IMG/VR virus record: IMGVR_UViG_3300028603_000002
Location: 64,001 to 128,000 of that record
Reading direction: 5' to 3' (one strand)
DNA length: 64,000 nucleotides
Source: a virus
Taxonomy: Duplodnaviria > Caudoviricetes
Shown here: piece after piece, positions 4,898-26,817 of the stretch
Position numbering within the stretch: position 1 is the first letter of the stretch
Layout: the number at the start of each line of letters is the position of its first letter
Made by a program: the position numbers and the translations under genes
Notes under the pieces: model-generated
Told to the model about the DNA's origin: nothing
What the model saw: only the letters and a program-made list of their open reading frames with translations
Databases searched by the model: none

Positions 4898-5919
4898 AAA
4901 TTGTAATTGGTACAAATATAATGTTTTATGAGTATGGAATGTTAGATGATTATCTAACATCTATCAAAAATGCTATTGATACAGTTAAAGAAGAAGATGA
5001 CATTCGTGTAGAATTAGATTTCTTTATAAATTGCGATCAAACATTTGAAAAATTTGACGGTGACATTGATAAGCATTGTCTTGAAATGAAGGATAAAATT
5101 AGAGGATATTTTGATTATGCAAGAACAAAAAATTATGTAAATGGAACAATACATTCATCAGATTCAATGATATTCTACGAACCACCTCCTGTTACAATGA
5201 CATCTTATAGAAGGTGGTTAAATACTGAATATTCACATTATGATTATGTTATATGGGGAGAAACAGATTGTTTAGTACCACACGTAATATTTCATGCACT
5301 TAAACAATTAAGATTAAAAACAAATTCATTAGAAATATATAGATACATTGCTACATTTGCTACAAGAAAAATGTGGGATGAATCATGGAAACCATTAGAA
5401 TTAGATATTTTTGAAGATAAAGAATATTACGAAAGCACAGATCCAAGAAGTAAAACTGAATTGCATAGTATTAGAAGATACATGACAATAGATGAAATGA
5501 ATAAAATAAATTCAAAAGTAGAGGATCTAAAGATAAACTCTATCACTTCTCCTAAATTTGACGGTAGTATCTTAGTTATAACGGGTGATCTAATCCAAGC
5601 GGGTGCTAATATCCCTTCTGGATTTTGGGGCTTATCTGGGGAGGATACGGCGTTTATGCAGAGTTGTATGAACGTAATGAAAACTCATTACGTTCAATTT
5701 ATCTTCAAAAACATATTAAAGGTTCATAATAGAGAACATCCATTGAAGAGACAAAAGGTTTTAACAATAGATGGGGAACCGAGCACACAAGAAAATAAAG
5801 GTTCATTGTATAATAAAGTGCGTGATGTCAATAAATACAATTTGGCGACATTAACTAATCCGTCATTATTAAGAAAGAAAATGATATCATATACTGAATT
5901 TATTAAAGAAAATAATTAA
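4894..5919 (+). CDS. GT-A fold glycosyltransferase-like protein
   Basis: YDYVIWGETD and GEDT motifs. Operon context. Confidence 0.55.
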   Translation: MKIVIGTNIMFYEYGMLDDYLTSIKNAIDTVKEEDDIRVELDFFINCDQTFEKFDGDIDKHCLEMKDKIRGYFDYARTKNYVNGTIHSSDSMIFYEPPPVTMTSYRRWLNTEYSHYDYVIWGETDCLVPHVIFHALKQLRLKTNSLEIYRYIATFATRKMWDESWKPLELDIFEDKEYYESTDPRSKTELHSIRRYMTIDEMNKINSKVEDLKINSITSPKFDGSILVITGDLIQAGANIPSGFWGLSGEDTAFMQSCMNVMKTHYVQFIFKNILKVHNREHPLKRQKVLTIDGEPSTQENKGSLYNKVRDVNKYNLATLTNPSLLRKKMISYTEFIKENN

Positions 5920-14803: not shown

Positions 14804-15517
14804 ATGGAAAAACTGAGAATATTATATAAAGATGCTTTTTATCAAAATCTCCTTAAAGAAGGAGTATATGATCCCGCAATATTCAAGGCAATATTTATGG
14901 CAGGGGGGCCTGGTTCGGGAAAATCATATATTGCAAAAAAAGTAACAGGGGGATTAGGGTACAAATTCATAAGTTCAGATATTGCTTTTGAACATTTCTT
15001 AAATAAATTAAAGATGTCTCATAAATTGGATAAATTATCTGATGAGGAATTCAATAAAGTAATACGAACTAGAAATAGGGCAAAGGAACTAACTAAGAAA
15101 ATAAAAGCTTCTCATGAAGGTGGGAGATTAGGATTGATATTTGATGGTACAGGGTATGACTATTTAAAGATAAAAAAATTGAGGGATGAAATTACTAAGT
15201 ACGGATATGATACATATATGATTTTTGTGAATACTTCTTTGGATGTAGCATTAGAAAGAAATCAAAAGAGATCAAGAACTGTACCTGAAGACGTAGTGAT
15301 AGGAAAATGGAAAGCAGTGCAAGAAAATATTGGTAAATTTCAAAATTTATTTGGATCTAATTTTACTGTTATTGATAACAATACACCAGATGTTGAAGAA
15401 ACACTTGATTTAGAACGAAAGCAAGTCATGAAATTTACTAAAGCACCCATAAAAAATCCAATTGCGAAACAGTGGATTGATAGAGAATTAGAATTAAAAA
15501 ATAGATTAAGTAAATAA
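14804..15517 (+). CDS. P-loop kinase (AAA_33/zeta-like)
   Basis: AGGPGSGKS, LIFDGTG and FVNTSLDVALERN..R.R motifs. Confidence 0.8.
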   Translation: MEKLRILYKDAFYQNLLKEGVYDPAIFKAIFMAGGPGSGKSYIAKKVTGGLGYKFISSDIAFEHFLNKLKMSHKLDKLSDEEFNKVIRTRNRAKELTKKIKASHEGGRLGLIFDGTGYDYLKIKKLRDEITKYGYDTYMIFVNTSLDVALERNQKRSRTVPEDVVIGKWKAVQENIGKFQNLFGSNFTVIDNNTPDVEETLDLERKQVMKFTKAPIKNPIAKQWIDRELELKNRLSK

Positions 15518-15718: not shown

Positions 15719-16084
15719 ATGAAAAAAATACTAACAATTGTCGAACCAGCATTATATTGTAACAATATAGAATCAATATTAACATTAAGTAGAAAGTATA
15801 AAAATGATATTGATATATGGGTAATAACAAATTTGTGCGATGCACATAGCATAAGGATGTTAGAAAAGAAAAGAATCAACTCTTCAAATTTGTATTATGC
15901 CCAAAATAAGCAGGATAAAATACAATTCTGTAAAGAGACTAGTTGTTATCATATAGATGATGACATTAATGATGTTGAAATAATTAAATACGAAGCCAAG
16001 ATTCCAGTTAAATTAATATTTGATAGGAGAATAATTACGGACTATCGCATTTTTTTAGAAAAAAGATTAAAAAAGATTTTGTAG
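15719..16084 (+). CDS. HAD-like hypothetical protein
   Basis: VIT, K and HIDDD motifs. GGGGAG RBS. Confidence 0.5.
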   Translation: MKKILTIVEPALYCNNIESILTLSRKYKNDIDIWVITNLCDAHSIRMLEKKRINSSNLYYAQNKQDKIQFCKETSCYHIDDDINDVEIIKYEAKIPVKLIFDRRIITDYRIFLEKRLKKIL

Positions 16085-16255
16085 ATATAAAAATGTTATT
16101 TATATTTATGATGTTGAAAAGATATTTGGGTGTTATTATTCTAACACGAAGTTATTTGAAACGCTGGCAGACATAGACGCATACATCTAACCAAGTAATA
16201 CGATCTGGTATGGTAATTTTAGAATTACGAGTCAGGTGTGTATGAGTCATTTTTA

Positions 16256-16332: not shown

Positions 16333-16409
16333 AAAATAGAAACATAATATATGTTACTTACATCAATTTCATAGACTGACTTAATTACATATATTGATTA
16401 TTCTATTTT
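16333..16409 (+). ncRNA. ACAT/TACT/GATTA stem motif, copy A
   Basis: AAAATAGAA-ACAT-AATATATGT-TACT...ACATATATT-GATTA-TTCTATTTT. Confidence 0.7.
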
Positions 16410-16420
16410 ATTTTAAGAAC

Positions 16421-16536
16421 AAAAAGAAAACATTATTGATGTTACTCTGGATTAATCTCCCGAATGGGGGATTGATAGGTTCGATTCCTATCAGGACCGA
16501 ATGGTCTTGTTATACATCAATTGATTATTTCTTTTT
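16421..16536 (+). ncRNA. stem motif copy B carrying a tRNA T-arm (Y-RNA/YrlA-like)
   Basis: Same motif, with the loop holding ATAGG-TTCGATT-CCTAT and two extra hairpins. Confidence 0.7.
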
Positions 16537-16547
16537 TTACAATACAC

Positions 16548-18761: not shown

Positions 18762-18832
18762 TGCCCTGTAGTATAATGGTAGTATATAGGAATTTGGATC
18801 CTATGGTTTCAGTTCGAATCTGAGCAGGGCGT
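18762..18832 (+). tRNA. tRNA-Gln(TTG)
   Basis: TAGGA-ATTTGGA-TCCTA. Confidence 0.85.
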
Positions 18833-18840
18833 CTAATAAA

Positions 18841-19524: not shown

Positions 19525-19528
19525 CAAA

Positions 19529-19602
19529 AAATAGAAACATAACACATGTTACTTTATGAATCGTTTATTTCAACCAAACTACATGTGTTGATTATTCTAT
19601 TT
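19529..19602 (+). ncRNA. stem motif copy C
   Basis: AAATAGAA-ACAT-AACACATGT-TACT...ACATGTGTT-GATTA-TTCTATTT. Confidence 0.7.
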
Positions 19603-19611
19603 ATTTTTAAT

Positions 19612-19692: not shown

Positions 19693-19835
19693 TGCGTGGT
19701 AGTTGAATTGGAATATTATTCGTCCGACGGTAGTATTTTGAAATGAATGACGATTCATTAAGTTTAATACCTTAGAATAATAACAACACTCCCGGCTAGA
19801 GGGAGAGATTGCAGGTTCGACTCCTGTCCACGCAA
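19693..19835 (+). tRNA. tRNA-like RNA with CTA anticodon and 69-nt D-loop insertion
   Basis: TGCGTGG/CCACGCA acceptor, D stem GTTG/CAAC, CTCCC-GGCTAGA-GGGAG, canonical T arm. Confidence 0.65.
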
Positions 19836-19858
19836 CTATTAACAGGTAACTACTAGAT

Positions 19859-20111: not shown

Positions 20112-20477
20112 ATGAAAACAGGATTTTATAATCTATCAACACTTTCTTTAGAAGAACTAAAGTCTTTTTATAAAGATACAATTCCTCTTTCATATTGTAT
20201 CATGTGTGAATCAAAATACACCACATATAAAAATAAATGGAGATCTGTAGATAATAAATACAATATCAATGATTATATTGAGAGAGTAAATCATGCTAAC
20301 CACAATGTTTGTATAGATAGATCAATTCAAGGAGCTAACCTCCCAGGAACTGAAAGAGGAGAGATTGGATTCAAATTACATGAAACATATGATAGAGACT
20401 GGCATCAAATAACATTCTATACTACATTAGAAAACTTTTATAAATTAGTTGACAAATTTAAACTAAAAGAATTATGA
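20112..20477 (+). CDS. hypothetical protein
   Basis: 121-aa ORF coupled to the next gene (ATGA overlap). Confidence 0.6.
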   Translation: MKTGFYNLSTLSLEELKSFYKDTIPLSYCIMCESKYTTYKNKWRSVDNKYNINDYIERVNHANHNVCIDRSIQGANLPGTERGEIGFKLHETYDRDWHQITFYTTLENFYKLVDKFKLKEL

Positions 20478-21169
20478 GATGTTTAGCAGTTGGTGATATA
20501 CACGGCAATTATGATGCATTAATGGATGTATTAGAAAAATGTAATTATGATCCTAATAATGATATGTTAATTGCAATGGGCGATTATACTGATAGAGGAC
20601 CTAAAAACATTGCAGTAGTAGAATTTTTATTATCAATTGGTCATTTTATTGGATTACTTGGAAACCATGATGTTTGGGTAAGAGAATATCTAAATGGAAA
20701 TTATAGTGGAATAGATTGGATATTGAATGGTGGAAAAGTAACATATGATGAATATGAAAAAGCAAAGAAACTTGGTTCATTTGATATTGGTCTACATAAA
20801 GAATTCTTTAATAGTTTACATGAATATTATGTCTTAGAATTGAATGGTAAGAAGTATGGATTCGTCCATGGTGGATTTTATTCGTGGGATGGATTAGGAC
20901 ATGATGATACAGTAAAATATACTTGGTGCAGAGAGTTGTGGGAAGATGTATTTAATGGGCGGAATGAATCAGTAAAAAATCAGTTATCACATTATGATAC
21001 ATTATTTATAGGACATTGCCCGACAAATTTATATGGTGTTAAACCAGATAAACTTCCAGTTAAATATGCAAATGTTATTAACCTAGACCAAGGTATTGCT
21101 TATGAAAATGGAAGATTAACAATATGTGATATAGAAACTGAACAATGTTGGCAATCCAGTAAAAAGTAA
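20474..21169 (+). CDS. metallophosphoesterase (Ser/Thr protein phosphatase-like)
   Basis: GDIHG, GDYTDRG, GNHD, FVHGG and GHCP motifs. Confidence 0.9.
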   Translation: MRCLAVGDIHGNYDALMDVLEKCNYDPNNDMLIAMGDYTDRGPKNIAVVEFLLSIGHFIGLLGNHDVWVREYLNGNYSGIDWILNGGKVTYDEYEKAKKLGSFDIGLHKEFFNSLHEYYVLELNGKKYGFVHGGFYSWDGLGHDDTVKYTWCRELWEDVFNGRNESVKNQLSHYDTLFIGHCPTNLYGVKPDKLPVKYANVINLDQGIAYENGRLTICDIETEQCWQSSKK

Positions 21170-21513: not shown

Positions 21514-21603
21514 CTAGAAAAATATATGAAAAATATTTCAAGAAATATTTGGTTAATTGGAAAACATTACTTATCTTTATTATGAAATAAAAGAGTATAA
21601 GTT

Positions 21604-22472: not shown

Positions 22473-22559
22473 GTGTACGAATCGGATATGGTTTGCCGAG
22501 TCAGGTTGTGACCCTGGTGTGATGAAAGTCACGTGCGAGTTCGAATCTCGTCGTACACC
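22473..22559 (+). tRNA. tRNA-His(GTG) with long variable arm
   Basis: TCAGG-TTGTGAC-CCTGG, C73, extra arm GTGA-TGAAAG-TCAC. Confidence 0.8.
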
Positions 22560-22734: not shown

Positions 22735-23319
22735 ATGAGAATAATATTCGATATTCATGGAAAGATGCATCGGTATAAACAATTAACAACTGATGTCAAA
22801 AAGAGTGTACAAATAGGTGATTTAGGATTTAAAAGTCAACATGAATGGTTTTTAGCTAATATGGATTGTGATAATCATAAAGTATTATTTGGTAACCATG
22901 ATTATTATCCATATATAAATCTAAAACATTCGTTGGGTGATTTTGCTTTCTATGAAGGAATATTCTTTATACGTGGTGCTGCTTCAATTGATAAAGCATA
23001 TAGAGTTGCTTATAGAGATTGGTTCCCAGAAGAAGAATTGAATTTTAGACAAATGACTGAATGTTTCAATCTTTATAGTGAAATTAAACCAAAGATTGTA
23101 GTTAGTCATGATTGCCCACAAGCTGTATGCAAAGAATTATTCGGGCATCCAGGTTCTCACACAAGAAATTTTTTACAATTATTATTTGAAGAACATCAAC
23201 CTGATATGTGGTTATTTGGCCACCACCATCAAAATGTAGAATTGGTTCTTGATAATACTTATTTTAAATGTGGTGAAGAATTAGAATATTATGATATATC
23301 AGAAAATTTATTAAAATGA
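22735..23319 (+). CDS. metallophosphoesterase
   Basis: DIHG, GDLG, GNHD, GAASID, SHDCP and FGHHH motifs. Confidence 0.85.
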   Translation: MRIIFDIHGKMHRYKQLTTDVKKSVQIGDLGFKSQHEWFLANMDCDNHKVLFGNHDYYPYINLKHSLGDFAFYEGIFFIRGAASIDKAYRVAYRDWFPEEELNFRQMTECFNLYSEIKPKIVVSHDCPQAVCKELFGHPGSHTRNFLQLLFEEHQPDMWLFGHHHQNVELVLDNTYFKCGEELEYYDISENLLK

Positions 23320-24235: not shown

Positions 24236-24406
24236 ATGAACGACTACACTATAATGTCCTTCGGAGAACATAAAGGAAAACATCTGAAGGATGTACCTGC
24301 CAGCTATTTCATATATCTACATGAAGAAAACATAGCCTTTGGACCTATTAAAAGATATATAGAAGATAACTTAGATGTATTCTATCACGAAGTTAACCAA
24401 AAATAA
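24236..24406 (+). CDS. DUF3820-like small protein
   Basis: MSFGEHKGKHLKDVPASYFIYL. Paralog of 56846..57034. Confidence 0.65.
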   Translation: MNDYTIMSFGEHKGKHLKDVPASYFIYLHEENIAFGPIKRYIEDNLDVFYHEVNQK

Positions 24407-24523
24407 TAATGAAGATATTTGGATAAGTTAAATACTTTTCTTATCTTTATTGTCTAATTAATTATTTGACTTGAATACTTAGTATCATGAAAAGACTTCA
24501 TAACAACATATAACTGAAACAAG

Positions 24524-24647
24524 CAAGGGGTAGTGTAATTGGCAGCACAGGTAAATTACATTACACGATTATTATTTAAAAATAAACATGTTTAGTGTTA
24601 CTCGCTTTCTGGTAGCCCTAGTCCTGGTTCGAATCCAGGCCCCTTGC
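24524..24647 (+). tRNA. tRNA-Gln(CTG)-like with 52-nt insertion in the anticodon stem (motif copy D)
   Basis: Removing 24552-24603 restores GGGCT-TTCTGGT-AGCCC. D arm, T arm and CAAGGGG/CCCCTTG acceptor intact. Confidence 0.7.
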
Positions 24648-24732: not shown

Positions 24733-26817
24733 ATGGAAAAACATGAATTGAAGCACAAAATTACTTTCCTAAAAGTTAAAGGGCTTCATGTTAAACAAGG
24801 TTCTGATTCAGGTAATGATAGCCTAGTACATCAAATCAACCATGAGTTGATGGGTATAGGTTATATACTTGAAAAAGACCTATTTGATAGGTTATGTACT
24901 TTAAAAGAAGGGCAGTTAAATAATGTCTATCATGGAATTGTATCCGCTATAAAAGATGTAGTTGGTGATTCTGATGGATATGAGCCTATCTACAGAAACT
25001 TTCCTCAATCAGTATTAAGCAAGTCTCATTTTGAATTATTCGTCAATGCTATAATTCATTATTGGTCACTTGGTACTTGGAGACCCGAGGATGAAGAATT
25101 TCTTAATAGAGAAGTTAAGTTAGAAAAGGTTGAATTTAAACCTGTTAGATTGCTTATCGATGAACAATTCCACAAAGTATTTGAAAACATTGCTTATAGT
25201 GGTGAATCAATAAGTGCTTTTGATAAGGAAGCTATTGATTTTTATATTGATAATTATGATGCTGTGAATATTGAATTGAGTAAAATCAGGTTCAAAGAAA
25301 CTGCATCATATATTGGTAAGAGATTGATGGATAGTAAAATTCAAATGTTACCAACTAAATCTGCTACTACTGTATTGCGTATAATGAGTGCATATTCTGG
25401 AGGTGATGAGGGATTGAAGGAAAATACTAAATTCAAAAATCCATCAACCAGACAGTGTAATATATTACGTAGGACATTGGAGCAATGTTTTGATTTAGAA
25501 GATTCATTCAAAACATATCGTGAACCATGGTTAAGGTTGTTATTTTACTTGAATCCATTAGCTTCGAATAATGTTAAGAAGTACCCAAACCTTGCAGCAT
25601 ATACTAACCTATTAAGGAATGATCCTGGGTTGTTGGAAACATTCAATGCTAAAGTTGAAAAAGCATTGCAACATAAAAGTCCTGGTATATTTGAATTGTT
25701 GAAACACCGTCCAGGAGTATTTACTAGAAGATTAGATCATTTAGTACGGGTATTTGGTGAAGTTGCAATTGATAATTACCTTCAATTATCAAAATTATCA
25801 TTTGCTAATTTAATTGATGCATATAACCATTTCAGAAGTAGAGACAAAGTACAAAATTCCCGTTCTTCCGTAGTTGCATCAAGTAAAAGAAGCAATGCAC
25901 ATTCATATAAAGCATTAGATGCATTAGATTCAAAACTAGTAGTATCTATTACATCAAAGATCCTTAATAGGATGGTTGATATGAAGGTACAAGGTTTTGA
26001 GGATAAGAAAGTATTCATTGATCGTCAATGGTATTTCAAATCAATTCCAACTAATAATAGAGCGGCTGATTTATCATTAACTCAAAATGCATCATTTGAT
26101 TGTGAGTTATATGATGATAAGAAGAAATGTATCAGGATGTATGTACATTGGCCAGGTAGGTTTGATATTGATTTATCAGGTTGGTTGGTAAATGAAGACA
26201 GAACAGAAGTTCAGAAAATTGGTTGGAATGCTAGATATCATGACAGTGATGGTGCAGTTGTTTATTCAGGTGATAATACAGGTTATAGTGCTAAGAATGC
26301 TGAATACTTAGATATCAATATTCCGAAATTAAAGAAGAAGAGTATTGAGTGGGTAATAACTGAGGCTAGAGTATATCGAGGACCCAAGTTCTCAAAATGG
26401 TCAGGTCAAGGTGTCCATACAGGATTCATGGGTATTGATCATCCTGAAGCAAATAATAGATGGCAACCAAAAACATTGGAAAATGCCATTAAGGTAACAG
26501 TTGATACAGGTAATGTTTATTTAATTGCATTCCATATACCGACTATGAATGTTGTTTATTTAAACTTATCCAGTCCAGATAATAATAGTGTTTCAAATGC
26601 TGATACAGTATTGAAATTCCTAGATATGGTTGAACAAAATGCTGCTTTAGATTCCGGAGCTGTCGAATTTAGAATGTTGGAACTAGGTAGAAAGATAACT
26701 ATTGGTCACGCTATACAGATGAGAATGCCAGCATTATCTGATACGTTAGAAGGAGCGGATGTTGTATTTGATGAAAATACACAAGTTGAAGAACTTCTAA
26801 CAATAGTTAATGACTAA
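24733..26817 (+). CDS. large helical-repeat protein with C-terminal TerD-like domain (candidate Ro/TROVE-like)
   Basis: YEPIYRNFPQSV...NAIIHYW and RPGVFTRRLDHL in the N-terminal part. TerD-like DIDLSG, YSGD and AEYLDI motifs. Confidence 0.65.
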   Translation: MEKHELKHKITFLKVKGLHVKQGSDSGNDSLVHQINHELMGIGYILEKDLFDRLCTLKEGQLNNVYHGIVSAIKDVVGDSDGYEPIYRNFPQSVLSKSHFELFVNAIIHYWSLGTWRPEDEEFLNREVKLEKVEFKPVRLLIDEQFHKVFENIAYSGESISAFDKEAIDFYIDNYDAVNIELSKIRFKETASYIGKRLMDSKIQMLPTKSATTVLRIMSAYSGGDEGLKENTKFKNPSTRQCNILRRTLEQCFDLEDSFKTYREPWLRLLFYLNPLASNNVKKYPNLAAYTNLLRNDPGLLETFNAKVEKALQHKSPGIFELLKHRPGVFTRRLDHLVRVFGEVAIDNYLQLSKLSFANLIDAYNHFRSRDKVQNSRSSVVASSKRSNAHSYKALDALDSKLVVSITSKILNRMVDMKVQGFEDKKVFIDRQWYFKSIPTNNRAADLSLTQNASFDCELYDDKKKCIRMYVHWPGRFDIDLSGWLVNEDRTEVQKIGWNARYHDSDGAVVYSGDNTGYSAKNAEYLDINIPKLKKKSIEWVITEARVYRGPKFSKWSGQGVHTGFMGIDHPEANNRWQPKTLENAIKVTVDTGNVYLIAFHIPTMNVVYLNLSSPDNNSVSNADTVLKFLDMVEQNAALDSGAVEFRMLELGRKITIGHAIQMRMPALSDTLEGADVVFDENTQVEELLTIVND

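What the first reader, a model, noticed from the sequence alone, without database searches (positions are those of the whole stretch)
24523..24647. tRNA-Gln(CTG) interrupted in its anticodon stem by a circularly permuted copy of the motif
Seen: a 52-nt insert (24552-24603) splits the 5' strand of the anticodon stem (GG|GCT). Deleting it yields a perfect GGGCT-TTCTGGT-AGCCC arm. The insert holds the motif with halves swapped (ACATTACAC-GATTA-TTATTT-AA-AAATAA-ACAT-GTTTAGTGT-TACT). The acceptor can extend to 8 bp (G-1:C73, His-like). Inference: either a non-canonical tRNA intron needing protein-assisted excision and ligation, or a tRNA chimera with a protein-docking arm. It is too short for a group I or group II intron.
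Basis: partly seen in the sequence, partly recalled or inferred. Interest (0 to 1): 0.8.

Follow-up and report, generated by a model that had tools for sequence, protein, structure and literature searches.

The report
tRNA carrying a protein-docking RNA handle
This phage glutamine tRNA gene is split in its anticodon stem by a 52-base hairpin that always accompanies one uncharacterised protein gene in many phages and some bacteria, so it most likely makes a tRNA tethered to that protein, an undescribed kind of RNA-protein particle, rather than a tRNA with an intron.

Summary
Removing 24552-24603 gives a clean 73-nt tRNA-Gln(CUG), and the insert is a circular permutation of a covarying hairpin "handle" with four other copies in the window.

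The handle lies directly upstream of the adjacent 694-aa gene (24733-26817) in 33 of 34 related loci. These include a 72% GC Myxococcales chromosome. A diverged version follows the homologue in the cultured Rhodococcus phage Weasels2. No other gene travels with it.

In relatives the handle interrupts nine further tRNAs at positions 26-30 of the anticodon stem. It also encloses circularly permuted tRNAs, encloses tRNA mimics with closed acceptor stems, or carries nothing.

The protein has a TerD domain. Its helical domain is most like Ro60, though weakly.

My best reading (about 0.55) is a Y-RNA-like chimera in which the hairpin docks the protein and is not spliced out. Protein-dependent splicing of interrupted and permuted tRNAs remains possible (about 0.27) and would be categorically new.

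No RNA data were available, and I found no description in the papers searched. Earlier notes of this scan had already proposed the Ro60/Y-RNA reading for the motif on this genome.

The parts
24523..24551 (+). 5' part of the tRNA: G-1, acceptor 5' strand CAAGGGG, U8-A9, D arm GTGT-AATTGGCA-GCAC, A26, and G27-G28 of the anticodon stem
   Evidence: The same D arm and G-1 are found in the Myxococcales copies.
24552..24557 (+). 5' linker TAAATT, single-stranded and A/U-rich
   Evidence: The same or similar 5-8-nt A/U-rich linkers follow the 5' part in every interrupted or permuted relative (TAAATT, TAATT, TATTT, TTATT, TAACTT). They stay A/U-rich even in 72% GC DNA.
24558..24566 (+). Handle inner stem, 3' strand (S3, ACATTACAC)
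   Evidence: It pairs with 24590-24598 at 8 of 9 positions. This stem covaries in 50 copies.
24567..24571 (+). GATTA, the conserved half of the internal loop
   Evidence: Conserved in nearly all copies found, with GATTC or GATTT as variants. GATTA was itself a search criterion.
24572..24585 (+). Handle outer stem closed by a small loop (TTATTT-AA-AAATAA)
   Evidence: In ordinary copies this stem is the open end. Outer-stem pairing is 296/350 against 175 in shuffles.
24586..24589 (+). ACAT, the other half of the internal loop
   Evidence: ACAT or CCAT in all copies.
24590..24598 (+). Handle inner stem, 5' strand (S5, GTTTAGTGT)
24599..24603 (+). TACT plus C, the 3' linker
   Evidence: TACT is conserved after S5 in nearly all copies found (it was a search criterion; one TACA variant), followed by 0-2 further bases before the tRNA resumes.
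24604..24647 (+). 3' part of the tRNA: G29-C30-U31, anticodon loop UUCUGGU (anticodon CUG), AGCCC, variable loop, T arm, acceptor 3' strand, C73
24650..24715 (+). Ordinary-orientation handle with a 20-nt loop, ending 18 nt before the start codon of the protein gene
24733..26817 (+). 694-aa protein: helical N-terminal part (145-428 is Ro60-like in fold) plus a C-terminal TerD domain. Proposed binding partner of the handle.
16333..16415 (+). Handle copy with a 28-nt loop
16421..16540 (+). Handle copy whose loop holds a hairpin, a T arm (GATAGG-TTCGATT-CCTATC) and a closed acceptor-like hairpin, i.e. a tRNA mimic
19528..19605 (+). Handle copy with a 27-nt loop. Its inner stem differs from the copy at 16333 by compensatory changes.

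Best explanation
The gene encodes a chimeric RNA: a complete, correctly shaped tRNA-Gln(CUG) body with a 45-nt hairpin handle branching from the 5' strand of its anticodon stem between nucleotides 28 and 29. The handle consists of a 9-bp inner stem, a conserved ACAU/GAUUA internal loop and a short outer stem. It is the docking site for the protein encoded immediately downstream, a 694-aa protein with a Ro60-like helical domain and a TerD domain. The handle stays in the mature RNA. The particle would work like Ro60 with its tRNA-like Y RNA (YrlA), with the handle holding the protein and the tRNA part acting as adaptor or bait for a factor that recognises tRNAs. That factor could be an anticodon nuclease, a synthetase, or a modification or repair enzyme. 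The circular permutation means only that the RNA chain is open at the tRNA acceptor end rather than at the base of the handle, and the folded shape is the same in both cases. Shown: the structure and covariation of the handle, its strict linkage to the protein gene in phages and in a bacterium, and the series from empty handle, through tRNA mimic and permuted tRNA, to interrupted tRNA. Inferred: that the protein binds the handle, that the handle is not excised, and what the tRNA part recruits.
For: 1. Linkage. At least one handle lies within 700 nt upstream of the homologous gene in 33 of 34 loci, and the last one starts 67-157 nt before the ATG. No other protein gene is syntenic.
2. The module of protein gene plus interrupted tRNAs also sits in a 765-kb, 72% GC Myxococcales contig, among ordinary chromosomal genes and with no ligase or nuclease neighbour.
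3. A distant homologue (24% identity) in Rhodococcus phage Weasels2 is followed by four units of the same architecture with different conserved letters. One of them holds a permuted tRNA-Lys(CUU).
4. Most handles carry no tRNA. Several carry tRNA-shaped modules whose acceptor stem is closed by a 3-4-nt loop: GCAA in L017:37, CUA in L027:5868, and window 16421-16540. These cannot yield a tRNA by excision but match the YrlA design described in PMC4201824.
5. In a Foldseek-independent search of 48,161 chains, the only matches spanning most of the helical domain are D. radiodurans Rsr/Ro60 (Z 8.9, 287 residues for the whole model; Z 7.5, 242 residues for the domain alone) and phage phiLo Ro60 (Z 7.9 and 6.5).
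6. The phage encodes no RtcB, Rnl1, Rnl2 or EndA.
7. One tRNA body lineage, with D arm GTGT-AAYTGGYA-GCAC, is almost unchanged between the 32% GC phage and the 72% GC bacterium. Its anticodon differs in every member: CUG, UCG, GUA, UGG, UUC.
8. G-1:C73 occurs in 6 of about 13 handle-tRNA lineages from the phage and metagenome loci (the two Myxococcales copies also have it) against 1 of 119 ordinary tRNAs. This fits poorly with decoding by the anticodon's amino acid.
9. The handle-tRNA duplicates an ordinary tRNA with the same anticodon in L005 (Pro UGG) and in Weasels2 (Lys CUU).
10. Linker lengths vary (5-8 nt on the 5' side, TACT plus 0-2 on the 3' side) and so do insertion points (26-30, or in the loop). 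Such variation is easy for a tether and awkward for a measuring endonuclease.
Against: 1. No binding or expression data exist.
2. The Ro60 likeness is weak. Z of 7.5-8.9 lies in the range that helical repeats can reach by chance. Pfam TROVE is not detected, and a profile search of PDB sequences finds only TerD. The one sequence family hit is the uncharacterised SCO0854/MXAN_6230 family.
3. Nine interrupted genes and two permuted genes become canonical tRNAs on exact excision. In the ten clean 7-nt anticodon loops compared, all have U33 and a purine at 37, with G37 whenever position 36 is G and A37 otherwise. A pure tether does not obviously need this. One Myxococcales copy found later has C33.
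4. Gln(CUG) in this complete genome and Lys(UUU) in the complete 345-kb genome G001 have no uninterrupted copy.
5. The cloverleaf-plus-handle fold of the unspliced RNA is 11 kcal/mol worse than an alternative fold.
Confidence: 0.55

Rival explanations
1. The handle is a protein-dependent splicing and permutation signal. The RNA is cut at both linkers and the ends are rejoined. This removes the hairpin from interrupted tRNAs such as this tRNA-Gln, and joins the halves of permuted tRNAs through a circular intermediate. The logic would be that of archaeal bulge-helix-bulge processing, but with a different motif. The 694-aa protein would be the recognition factor, and host enzymes or an unrecognised activity would cut and ligate.
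For: Exact excision yields ARAGORN-canonical tRNAs for the window gene and for nine relatives with eight further anticodons. Inserts are 45-58 nt, at 28/29 or 29/30 in most. Permuted tRNA-Pro(UGG) in L004, L005 and L008 and permuted tRNA-Lys(CUU) in Weasels2 become canonical tRNAs when their ends are joined at 29/30. This pairing of intron and permuted gene is known elsewhere only where splicing exists. The anticodon loops keep decoding features (U33, R37, and the link between positions 36 and 37). Four interrupted genes score 49-53 bits with the Rfam tRNA model. Gln(CUG) and Lys(UUU) are non-redundant in two complete genomes. A P-loop kinase and two metallophosphoesterases, which are end-healing types, lie in the tRNA island. 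An extra arm at 28-30 should be incompatible with the ribosomal P site according to established structural knowledge, so a decoding role would require removal.
Against: No endonuclease or ligase is encoded in the phage or linked to the module in any locus, including the bacterial one. There is no bulge-helix-bulge geometry. Linker lengths and positions vary. Two genes have the handle in or after the anticodon loop, and one gene each gives an 8-nt and a 6-nt loop. Most handles have no tRNA to mature. Closed-acceptor mimics cannot become tRNAs. G-1:C73 and anticodon switching on a constant body argue against faithful decoding. Two genomes carry redundant copies.
Confidence: 0.27
2. The tRNA-Gln(CUG) gene is a dead gene, disrupted by insertion of a mobile hairpin element, and the resulting RNA has no function.
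For: ARAGORN and Rfam do not call the gene as it stands. The phage has a tRNA-Gln(UUG) that can read both Gln codons.
Against: All four tRNA arms are intact. Homologous interrupted genes with the same D arm, G-1:C73 and junction persist across phages and a 72% GC bacterium, with compensatory changes in the acceptor, anticodon and T stems. An identical sequence is present in a second sample (record 16). The position next to the protein gene is conserved.
Confidence: 0.05
3. The motif acts at the DNA level, as a single-stranded hairpin used for recombination, cassette exchange or transposition. The interrupted tRNA would be a by-product of such insertion.
For: The handle sits at nearly the same site in tRNAs with different bodies. 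The unit of anticodon stem plus handle is more conserved than the tRNA body between L015 and L021. Other cassette-like arrays exist in this genome according to earlier notes.
Against: All copies lie on the strand of the tRNAs and of the protein gene. G-T pairs are common in the stems while A-C pairs are rare, as expected for RNA read from the + strand. No transposase or recombinase is linked. No allele lacking the insert appears in three other samples.
Confidence: 0.03

Closest known systems
Ro60 (Rsr) with tRNA-like Y RNAs (YrlA) of bacteria and phages (Chen et al. 2014, PMC4201824; phage Ro60, PMC12135203)
   Same: RNA genes lie next to the protein gene, often in several copies. A conserved helix with an internal loop serves as the protein-binding module. 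The effector module imitates a tRNA, with a T arm, a D arm and an acceptor stem closed by a loop. M. smegmatis YrlA has a 7-bp acceptor stem, is cut by RNase P and receives CCA. That is the closest precedent for the permuted forms seen here. The helical domain of the protein is most like Rsr in fold.
   Different: The protein is not a recognisable TROVE protein and carries TerD where Ro60 has a vWA domain. The handle sequence is unrelated, and Rfam's families do not match it. Here the module can be a whole tRNA with an intact anticodon arm and free acceptor ends, and the handle branches from the anticodon stem instead of replacing it.
Archaeal bulge-helix-bulge tRNA introns, and the split and permuted tRNA genes of archaea and red or green algae
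   Same: A short, protein-dependent-looking insert at non-canonical positions, including the anticodon stem. Interrupted and circularly permuted genes share one junction motif. In-silico joining restores the tRNA exactly.
   Different: There is no BHB geometry and no EndA-family endonuclease. The host is bacterial, since the phage carries a tmRNA. The motif also occurs without any tRNA and is tied to one non-enzyme-like protein.
Circularly permuted two-piece tmRNA genes of alphaproteobacteria and cyanobacteria (established knowledge)
   Same: A bacterial tRNA-like RNA encoded in permuted order, which matures by cleavage only and works as two base-paired chains without ligation. This shows that permuted order need not imply splicing.
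   Different: It is a different RNA with no handle motif and no dedicated neighbouring protein.
Group I introns in bacterial and phage tRNA genes
   Same: They interrupt the anticodon arm of bacterial-type tRNAs.
   Different: They are over 200 nt long, self-splicing, located in the anticodon loop and detected by Rfam. This insert is 52 nt with no ribozyme match.

Membership tests
Canonical tRNA-Gln | Cloverleaf with anticodon CUG or UUG, U33 and a purine at 37 | tested here: met
   Met only after removal of 24552-24603 (ARAGORN). The spliced form has a cloverleaf as its minimum-energy fold.
Canonical tRNA-Gln | Uninterrupted gene recognised by tRNA finders | tested here: not met
   Not called by ARAGORN or by Rfam at the gathering score or at E<=5.
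Canonical tRNA-Gln | Acceptor-end identity like the genome's other tRNA-Gln | tested here: not met
   The interrupted gene has G-1, C1:G72 and C73. tRNA-Gln(UUG) at 18762-18833 has U1-G72 and U73. G-1:C73 is the bacterial tRNA-His signature (established knowledge).
Bulge-helix-bulge (archaeal or eukaryal) tRNA intron | Two 3-nt bulges separated by a 4-bp helix at the exon-intron junctions | tested here: not met
   By inspection, the junction is a three-way junction with linkers of 5-8 nt and 4-6 nt.
Bulge-helix-bulge (archaeal or eukaryal) tRNA intron | EndA/Sen-family splicing endonuclease available | tested here: not met
   PF01974 is absent from the complete phage genome, while the archaeal control genomes matched. 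The host genome is unknown.
Bulge-helix-bulge (archaeal or eukaryal) tRNA intron | RtcB or Rnl ligase available | tested here: not met
   PF01139 and PF09414 are absent from the phage. The PF09511 search had no valid control. The host was not tested.
Bulge-helix-bulge (archaeal or eukaryal) tRNA intron | Spliced product in vivo | not testable with these tools
   No RNA run was listed for this DNA.
Group I intron | Catalytic core P3-P9, more than about 200 nt | tested here: not met
   The insert is 52 nt and has no Rfam match.
Ro60-Y RNA (YrlA-type) ribonucleoprotein | TROVE-domain ring protein | tested here: inconclusive
   No Pfam TROVE hit. The best domain-wide fold matches are Rsr (Z 8.9 and 7.5) and phage Ro60 (Z 7.9 and 6.5), which lie within the range that helical repeats can reach by chance.
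Ro60-Y RNA (YrlA-type) ribonucleoprotein | RNA genes encoded beside the protein gene | tested here: met
   33 of 34 loci, plus Weasels2, XacN1 and the Myxococcales contig.
Ro60-Y RNA (YrlA-type) ribonucleoprotein | Conserved protein-binding helix plus a tRNA-like module | tested here: met
   The handle covaries. The modules range from a T arm with a closed acceptor to complete tRNAs.
Ro60-Y RNA (YrlA-type) ribonucleoprotein | Match to a curated Rfam RNA family | tested here: not met
   Only tRNA and tmRNA families matched in the window and in seven loci.
Ro60-Y RNA (YrlA-type) ribonucleoprotein | Physical binding of the RNA by the protein | not testable with these tools
   Needs a pull-down or gel-shift assay.
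Circularly permuted tRNA genes | 3' half encoded upstream of the 5' half, joined through the anticodon arm | tested here: not met
   Not met by the window gene, which is collinear. Met by relatives: L004, L005 and L008 Pro(UGG) and Weasels2 Lys(CUU).

The most novel reading that the evidence does not exclude
Bacteria and their phages possess a protein-guided RNA cut-and-rejoin system unrelated to the archaeal bulge-helix-bulge system. The handle marks the sites, the 694-aa protein recognises it, and interrupted and circularly permuted tRNA genes, including this tRNA-Gln(CUG), are matured into working tRNAs. This would be the first non-self-splicing tRNA introns and the first permuted tRNA genes in the bacterial world.
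Probability: 0.25. Interest if true: 0.95.

Novelty: new variant of a known kind. Interest (0 to 1): 0.8.

Why it matters
Both surviving readings are undescribed in the papers I could search.

If the handle is a docking arm, this is a new family of ribonucleoprotein particles in which whole tRNAs with free acceptor ends and variable anticodons are tethered to a Ro60-like/TerD protein. The family spans phages of Bacteroidota-like, actinobacterial and proteobacterial hosts as well as Myxococcales chromosomes. It would extend the Ro60/Y-RNA idea beyond recognisable TROVE proteins. It would also point to a role in the tRNA-centred conflicts between phages and hosts.

If the handle is spliced out, bacteria and phages have a second, independent solution to protein-dependent tRNA splicing.

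There is also a practical point. tRNA finders miss these genes, so phage tRNA inventories are incomplete. The cultured Rhodococcus phage Weasels2 makes the question directly testable.

Tried and rejected
I fetched relatives with the search for related loci instead.
- A single-protein scan of IMG/VR found nothing. An exact-pattern scan for the motif in IMG/VR gave two hits whose stems do not pair, so they are chance matches.
- A nucleotide search of cultured phages found only an unrelated tRNA match.
- The look-up of sequencing runs listed no RNA holder. Laying contigs of four DNA runs showed the same insert-bearing sequence in a second sample. It showed no allele lacking the 52 nt and no joint across it.
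- RtcB, Rnl2 and EndA profiles found nothing in the phage. The Rnl1 search had no working control.
- An Rfam search at permissive E-values found no ribozyme or other family.
- A profile search of PDB sequences found only TerD. The ESM Atlas pointed to TerD and SCO0854-like clusters, not to TROVE.
- No gene is syntenic with the protein gene, and the Myxococcales neighbours were uninformative.
- Nearest-neighbour comparison of handle-tRNA bodies with ordinary tRNAs gave no isotype assignment.
- I considered that the loops of empty handles might mimic anticodon stem-loops. I rejected this because they are predicted to be unstructured.
- -1:73 pairing in general is not special, at 59% of ordinary tRNAs. 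Only G-1:C73 is.
- The sigma-70 promoter and terminator scan was no better than shuffled sequence.
- A brute-force ARAGORN scan of all splice offsets was too permissive to use, so I set the junctions by anticodon-stem complementarity.

Full report
**Setting.** The window is bases 64001-128000 of a complete 171,908-bp virus genome with terminal repeats and 31.7% GC. It holds a tRNA island at 16.2-24.7 kb with 22 ARAGORN tRNAs, a tmRNA and several tRNAs that only Rfam sees. The finding lies at the 3' end of that island, immediately before a 694-aa ORF.

**Observation.** Neither ARAGORN nor Rfam calls a tRNA there. Deleting 24552-24603 in a script gives a canonical 73-nt tRNA-Gln(CUG), which folds as a cloverleaf at its minimum free energy. 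The insert lies between nucleotides 28 and 29, in the 5' strand of the anticodon stem. It reads TAAATT - ACATTACAC - GATTA - TTATTT AA AAATAA - ACAT - GTTTAGTGT - TACT C.

The motif it permutes is [outer stem]-ACAT-[9-nt S5]-TACT-[loop]-[9-nt S3]-GATTA-[outer stem]. It has four ordinary copies on the same strand (16333, 16421, 19528, 24650), whose inner stems differ by compensatory changes.

**The motif is a real structured element.** I fetched relatives through the neighbouring protein: 9 IMG/VR loci, 30 metagenome loci and 1 GTDB genome locus. A descriptor scan found the motif in nearly all of them.
- Over 50 unique copies, the outer stem, which played no part in detection, forms 296 of 350 possible pairs. 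Shuffles give 175 +/- 8, with a maximum of 201.
- Of 67 candidates chosen by the conserved letters alone, 48 have at least 8 of 9 inner-stem pairs.
- Every stem position shows several pair types. G-T pairs are common and A-C pairs rare, which points to RNA read from the + strand.

**Linkage to one protein gene.** In 33 of 34 loci with enough upstream sequence, at least one handle lies within 700 nt upstream of the homologue of ORF 24733-26817. The last handle starts 67-157 nt before the ATG. No other ORF of the window's tRNA island is conserved next to it. The module is therefore the handle RNAs plus this protein.

**What the handle carries in relatives.** There are four classes.
- (a) Interrupted tRNAs like the window's. 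Inserts are 45-58 nt, at 28/29 or 29/30. After in-script excision ARAGORN calls them Lys(UUU) in L010, Lys(CUU) and Pro(UGG) in L015, Arg(UCG) in L018, a UGA-anticodon tRNA in L020, Gln(UUG) in L021, Tyr(GUA) in L029 and Gly(UCC) in L030. Four of the interrupted genes in these loci score 49-53 bits with the Rfam tRNA model even without excision. One further gene (L016:3709) gives an 8-nt loop. Two (L016:3858, L030:5058) have the handle in or after the anticodon loop.
- (b) Circularly permuted tRNAs inside the loop of an ordinary handle. In L004, L005 and L008 the order is 3' half, 15-nt A/T-rich linker, 5' half. Joining the ends at 29/30 gives a canonical tRNA-Pro(UGG). L017:184 is similar but has a 6-nt loop.
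- (c) tRNA-shaped modules whose acceptor stem is closed by a 3-4-nt loop. Examples are L017:37 (GCAA), L027:5868 (CUA), window 16421-16540, L006, L015:3509, L016:5138, L020:5494 and L030:5899.
- (d) Handles with short loops of 15-43 nt. These are the majority, and most of the loops are predicted to be unstructured.

**Reach.**
- A 45%-identical homologue sits in a 765-kb, 72% GC contig of a Myxococcales MAG, among ordinary chromosomal genes. Two interrupted tRNAs lie directly upstream of it. They share the window gene's D arm (GTGT-AAYTGGYA-GCAC), G-1:C73, the 28/29 junction and the A/U-rich linker, but have other anticodon loops. L018, from an 897-kb contig, is of the same kind.
- A 24%-identical homologue in the cultured Rhodococcus phage Weasels2 lies inside its tRNA cluster. 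It is followed by four units of the same architecture: outer stem, 7x7 internal loop, 6-bp covarying inner stem, then TACTTC. The third unit holds a permuted tRNA-Lys(CUU), which ARAGORN confirms.
- The homologue in Xanthomonas phage XacN1 has an unannotated tRNA-like sequence with an encoded CCA about 300 nt upstream.

**The protein.** It has no Pfam family and matches one PHROG of unknown function. It gives a partial, below-cutoff match to the uncharacterised NCBIfam SCO0854/MXAN_6230 family.

The AlphaFold model has a mean pLDDT of 81. Residues 457-630 form a TerD fold (Z 13). For the helical part, the only matches spanning most of the domain in an exhaustive structural search are D. radiodurans Rsr/Ro60 (Z 8.9 over 287 residues for the whole model; Z 7.5 over 242 residues for the domain folded alone) and the Ro60 of Thermus phage phiLo (Z 7.9 and 6.5). 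All other hits are local stretches of about 90 residues. This is suggestive, not decisive. No catalytic motif of a nuclease or ligase was recognised.

**Weighing the two main readings.**

The following favour a docking arm that stays in the RNA:
- the strict RNA-protein linkage with no enzyme partner, in phages and in a bacterium;
- the predominance of handles with nothing to splice, and the tRNA mimics that excision cannot turn into tRNAs. This is the YrlA design, and M. smegmatis YrlA shows that a closed 7-bp acceptor can be opened by RNase P and receive CCA without any ligation;
- the absence of RtcB, Rnl2 and EndA from the phage;
- variable linker lengths and insertion points;
- a constant tRNA body with an ever-changing anticodon;
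- G-1:C73 in 6 of about 13 handle-tRNA lineages (the Myxococcales copies share it) against 1 of 119 ordinary tRNAs;
- redundancy with an ordinary tRNA of the same anticodon in L005 and Weasels2.

The following favour splicing:
- exact restoration of canonical tRNAs in nine relatives plus the window;
- the coexistence of interrupted and permuted genes at one junction;
- anticodon loops that keep U33 and a purine at 37, with G37 whenever position 36 is G, in the ten clean 7-nt loops compared;
- non-redundant anticodons in two complete genomes;
- the expectation, from established ribosome structure, that an arm at 28-30 would block normal decoding;
- an unspliced cloverleaf-plus-handle fold that is 11 kcal/mol less stable than an alternative fold, while the handle alone has only -4.3 kcal/mol. 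Either reading therefore needs a protein.

I put the docking-arm chimera at about 0.55, splicing at about 0.27, a dead gene at 0.05, a DNA-level element at 0.03, and the rest unassigned.

**Mechanism proposed.** Steps shown and steps inferred are marked. The gene is probably transcribed with the downstream handle and the protein gene, and a 63-nt repeat that also precedes other tRNA sub-clusters lies at 24399-24461 (inferred). RNase P and 3' processing free the acceptor end (inferred). The 9-bp inner stem, the ACAU/GAUUA loop and UACU bind the protein (inferred from linkage and conservation). The tRNA body and anticodon loop remain exposed and recruit a tRNA-recognising factor (inferred). The rapid turnover of anticodons on a fixed body, and the spread of the module among unrelated phages, fit a role in host-phage conflict over tRNAs, for example as bait for anticodon-specific nucleases. 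That last step is speculation.

**Novelty.** I found nothing on such interrupted or permuted tRNAs in phages or bacteria, or on this protein-RNA module, in the literature searched. Earlier notes of this scan on the same genome had proposed a Ro60/Y-RNA-like reading of the motif. I tested that reading with my own fold searches and extended it with the interrupted and permuted series, the bacterial copy and the cultured-phage copy.

**Limits.** I set junction positions by stem complementarity, and in L029 the position is ambiguous by up to two bases.

Noticed in passing
window 19694-19836: A 143-nt tRNA-like stretch with acceptor GCGTGG/CCACGC, a T arm, a variable-arm-like hairpin (CTCCC-GGCTAGA-GGGAG) and about 60 nt of extra sequence. 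Neither ARAGORN (also tried with introns) nor Rfam calls it, and it holds no handle motif.
   Followed up: partly
window 22473-22559: tRNA-His(GUG) has a long variable-arm hairpin and is 87 nt long. The same oddity (89 nt) appears in L005 and L008.
   Followed up: partly
window 24523 and 24647; L004, L016, L018, L021, L030, L048: G-1:C73, the acceptor-end signature of bacterial tRNA-His, occurs in about half of the handle-bearing tRNA lineages whatever their anticodon, against 1 of 119 ordinary tRNAs in the same loci.
   Followed up: partly
all ordinary tRNAs of the window and loci: 112 of 119 ordinary tRNAs have a C directly after the discriminator base, followed by A/T-rich sequence. This may be a partly encoded CCA or a processing signal.
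   Followed up: no
window 16058-16120, 21529-21591, 24399-24461: A 63-nt repeat precedes tRNA sub-clusters, including the interrupted tRNA-Gln. It may be a promoter module.
   Followed up: no
window 14804-15517, 20474-21169, 22735-23319: A P-loop kinase lies just upstream of the tRNA island and two calcineurin-type metallophosphoesterases lie inside it. The kinase matches AAA_33 and Zeta-toxin families and weakly matches PSTK and polynucleotide-kinase families. These are RNA end-healing types, but no ligase was found.
   Followed up: partly
L046 (Rhodococcus phage Weasels2 NC_041887) 4908-5297: Four unannotated handle-like RNA units follow gp266. The third (5090-5184) holds a circularly permuted tRNA-Lys(CUU), although the phage also has an ordinary tRNA-Lys(CUU).
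   Followed up: yes
L042 (Xanthomonas phage XacN1 AP018399) 5537-5613: An unannotated tRNA-like sequence with an encoded CCA and a 4-nt loop in place of an anticodon loop lies upstream of ORF396, the distant homologue of the protein. A repeated TTCCTTCTAAA motif is nearby.
   Followed up: no
L048 (Myxococcales MAG JACKDW010000003.1) 2718-2998: Two handle-interrupted tRNAs lie directly upstream of a 45%-identical homologue in a 72% GC bacterial chromosome, so the module is cellular as well as viral.
   Followed up: partly
window 24530-24563: The D-arm 5' strand (GUAGUGUAAUU) is complementary to the insert's linker plus S3. As a result the predicted minimum-energy fold of the unspliced RNA is not a cloverleaf. 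L029 shares a 7-bp version of this pairing; the GC-rich relatives do not.
   Followed up: partly
loops of empty handles in 38 loci copies: The hexamer AAACTT occurs in 12 of 38 otherwise unstructured loops.
   Followed up: no
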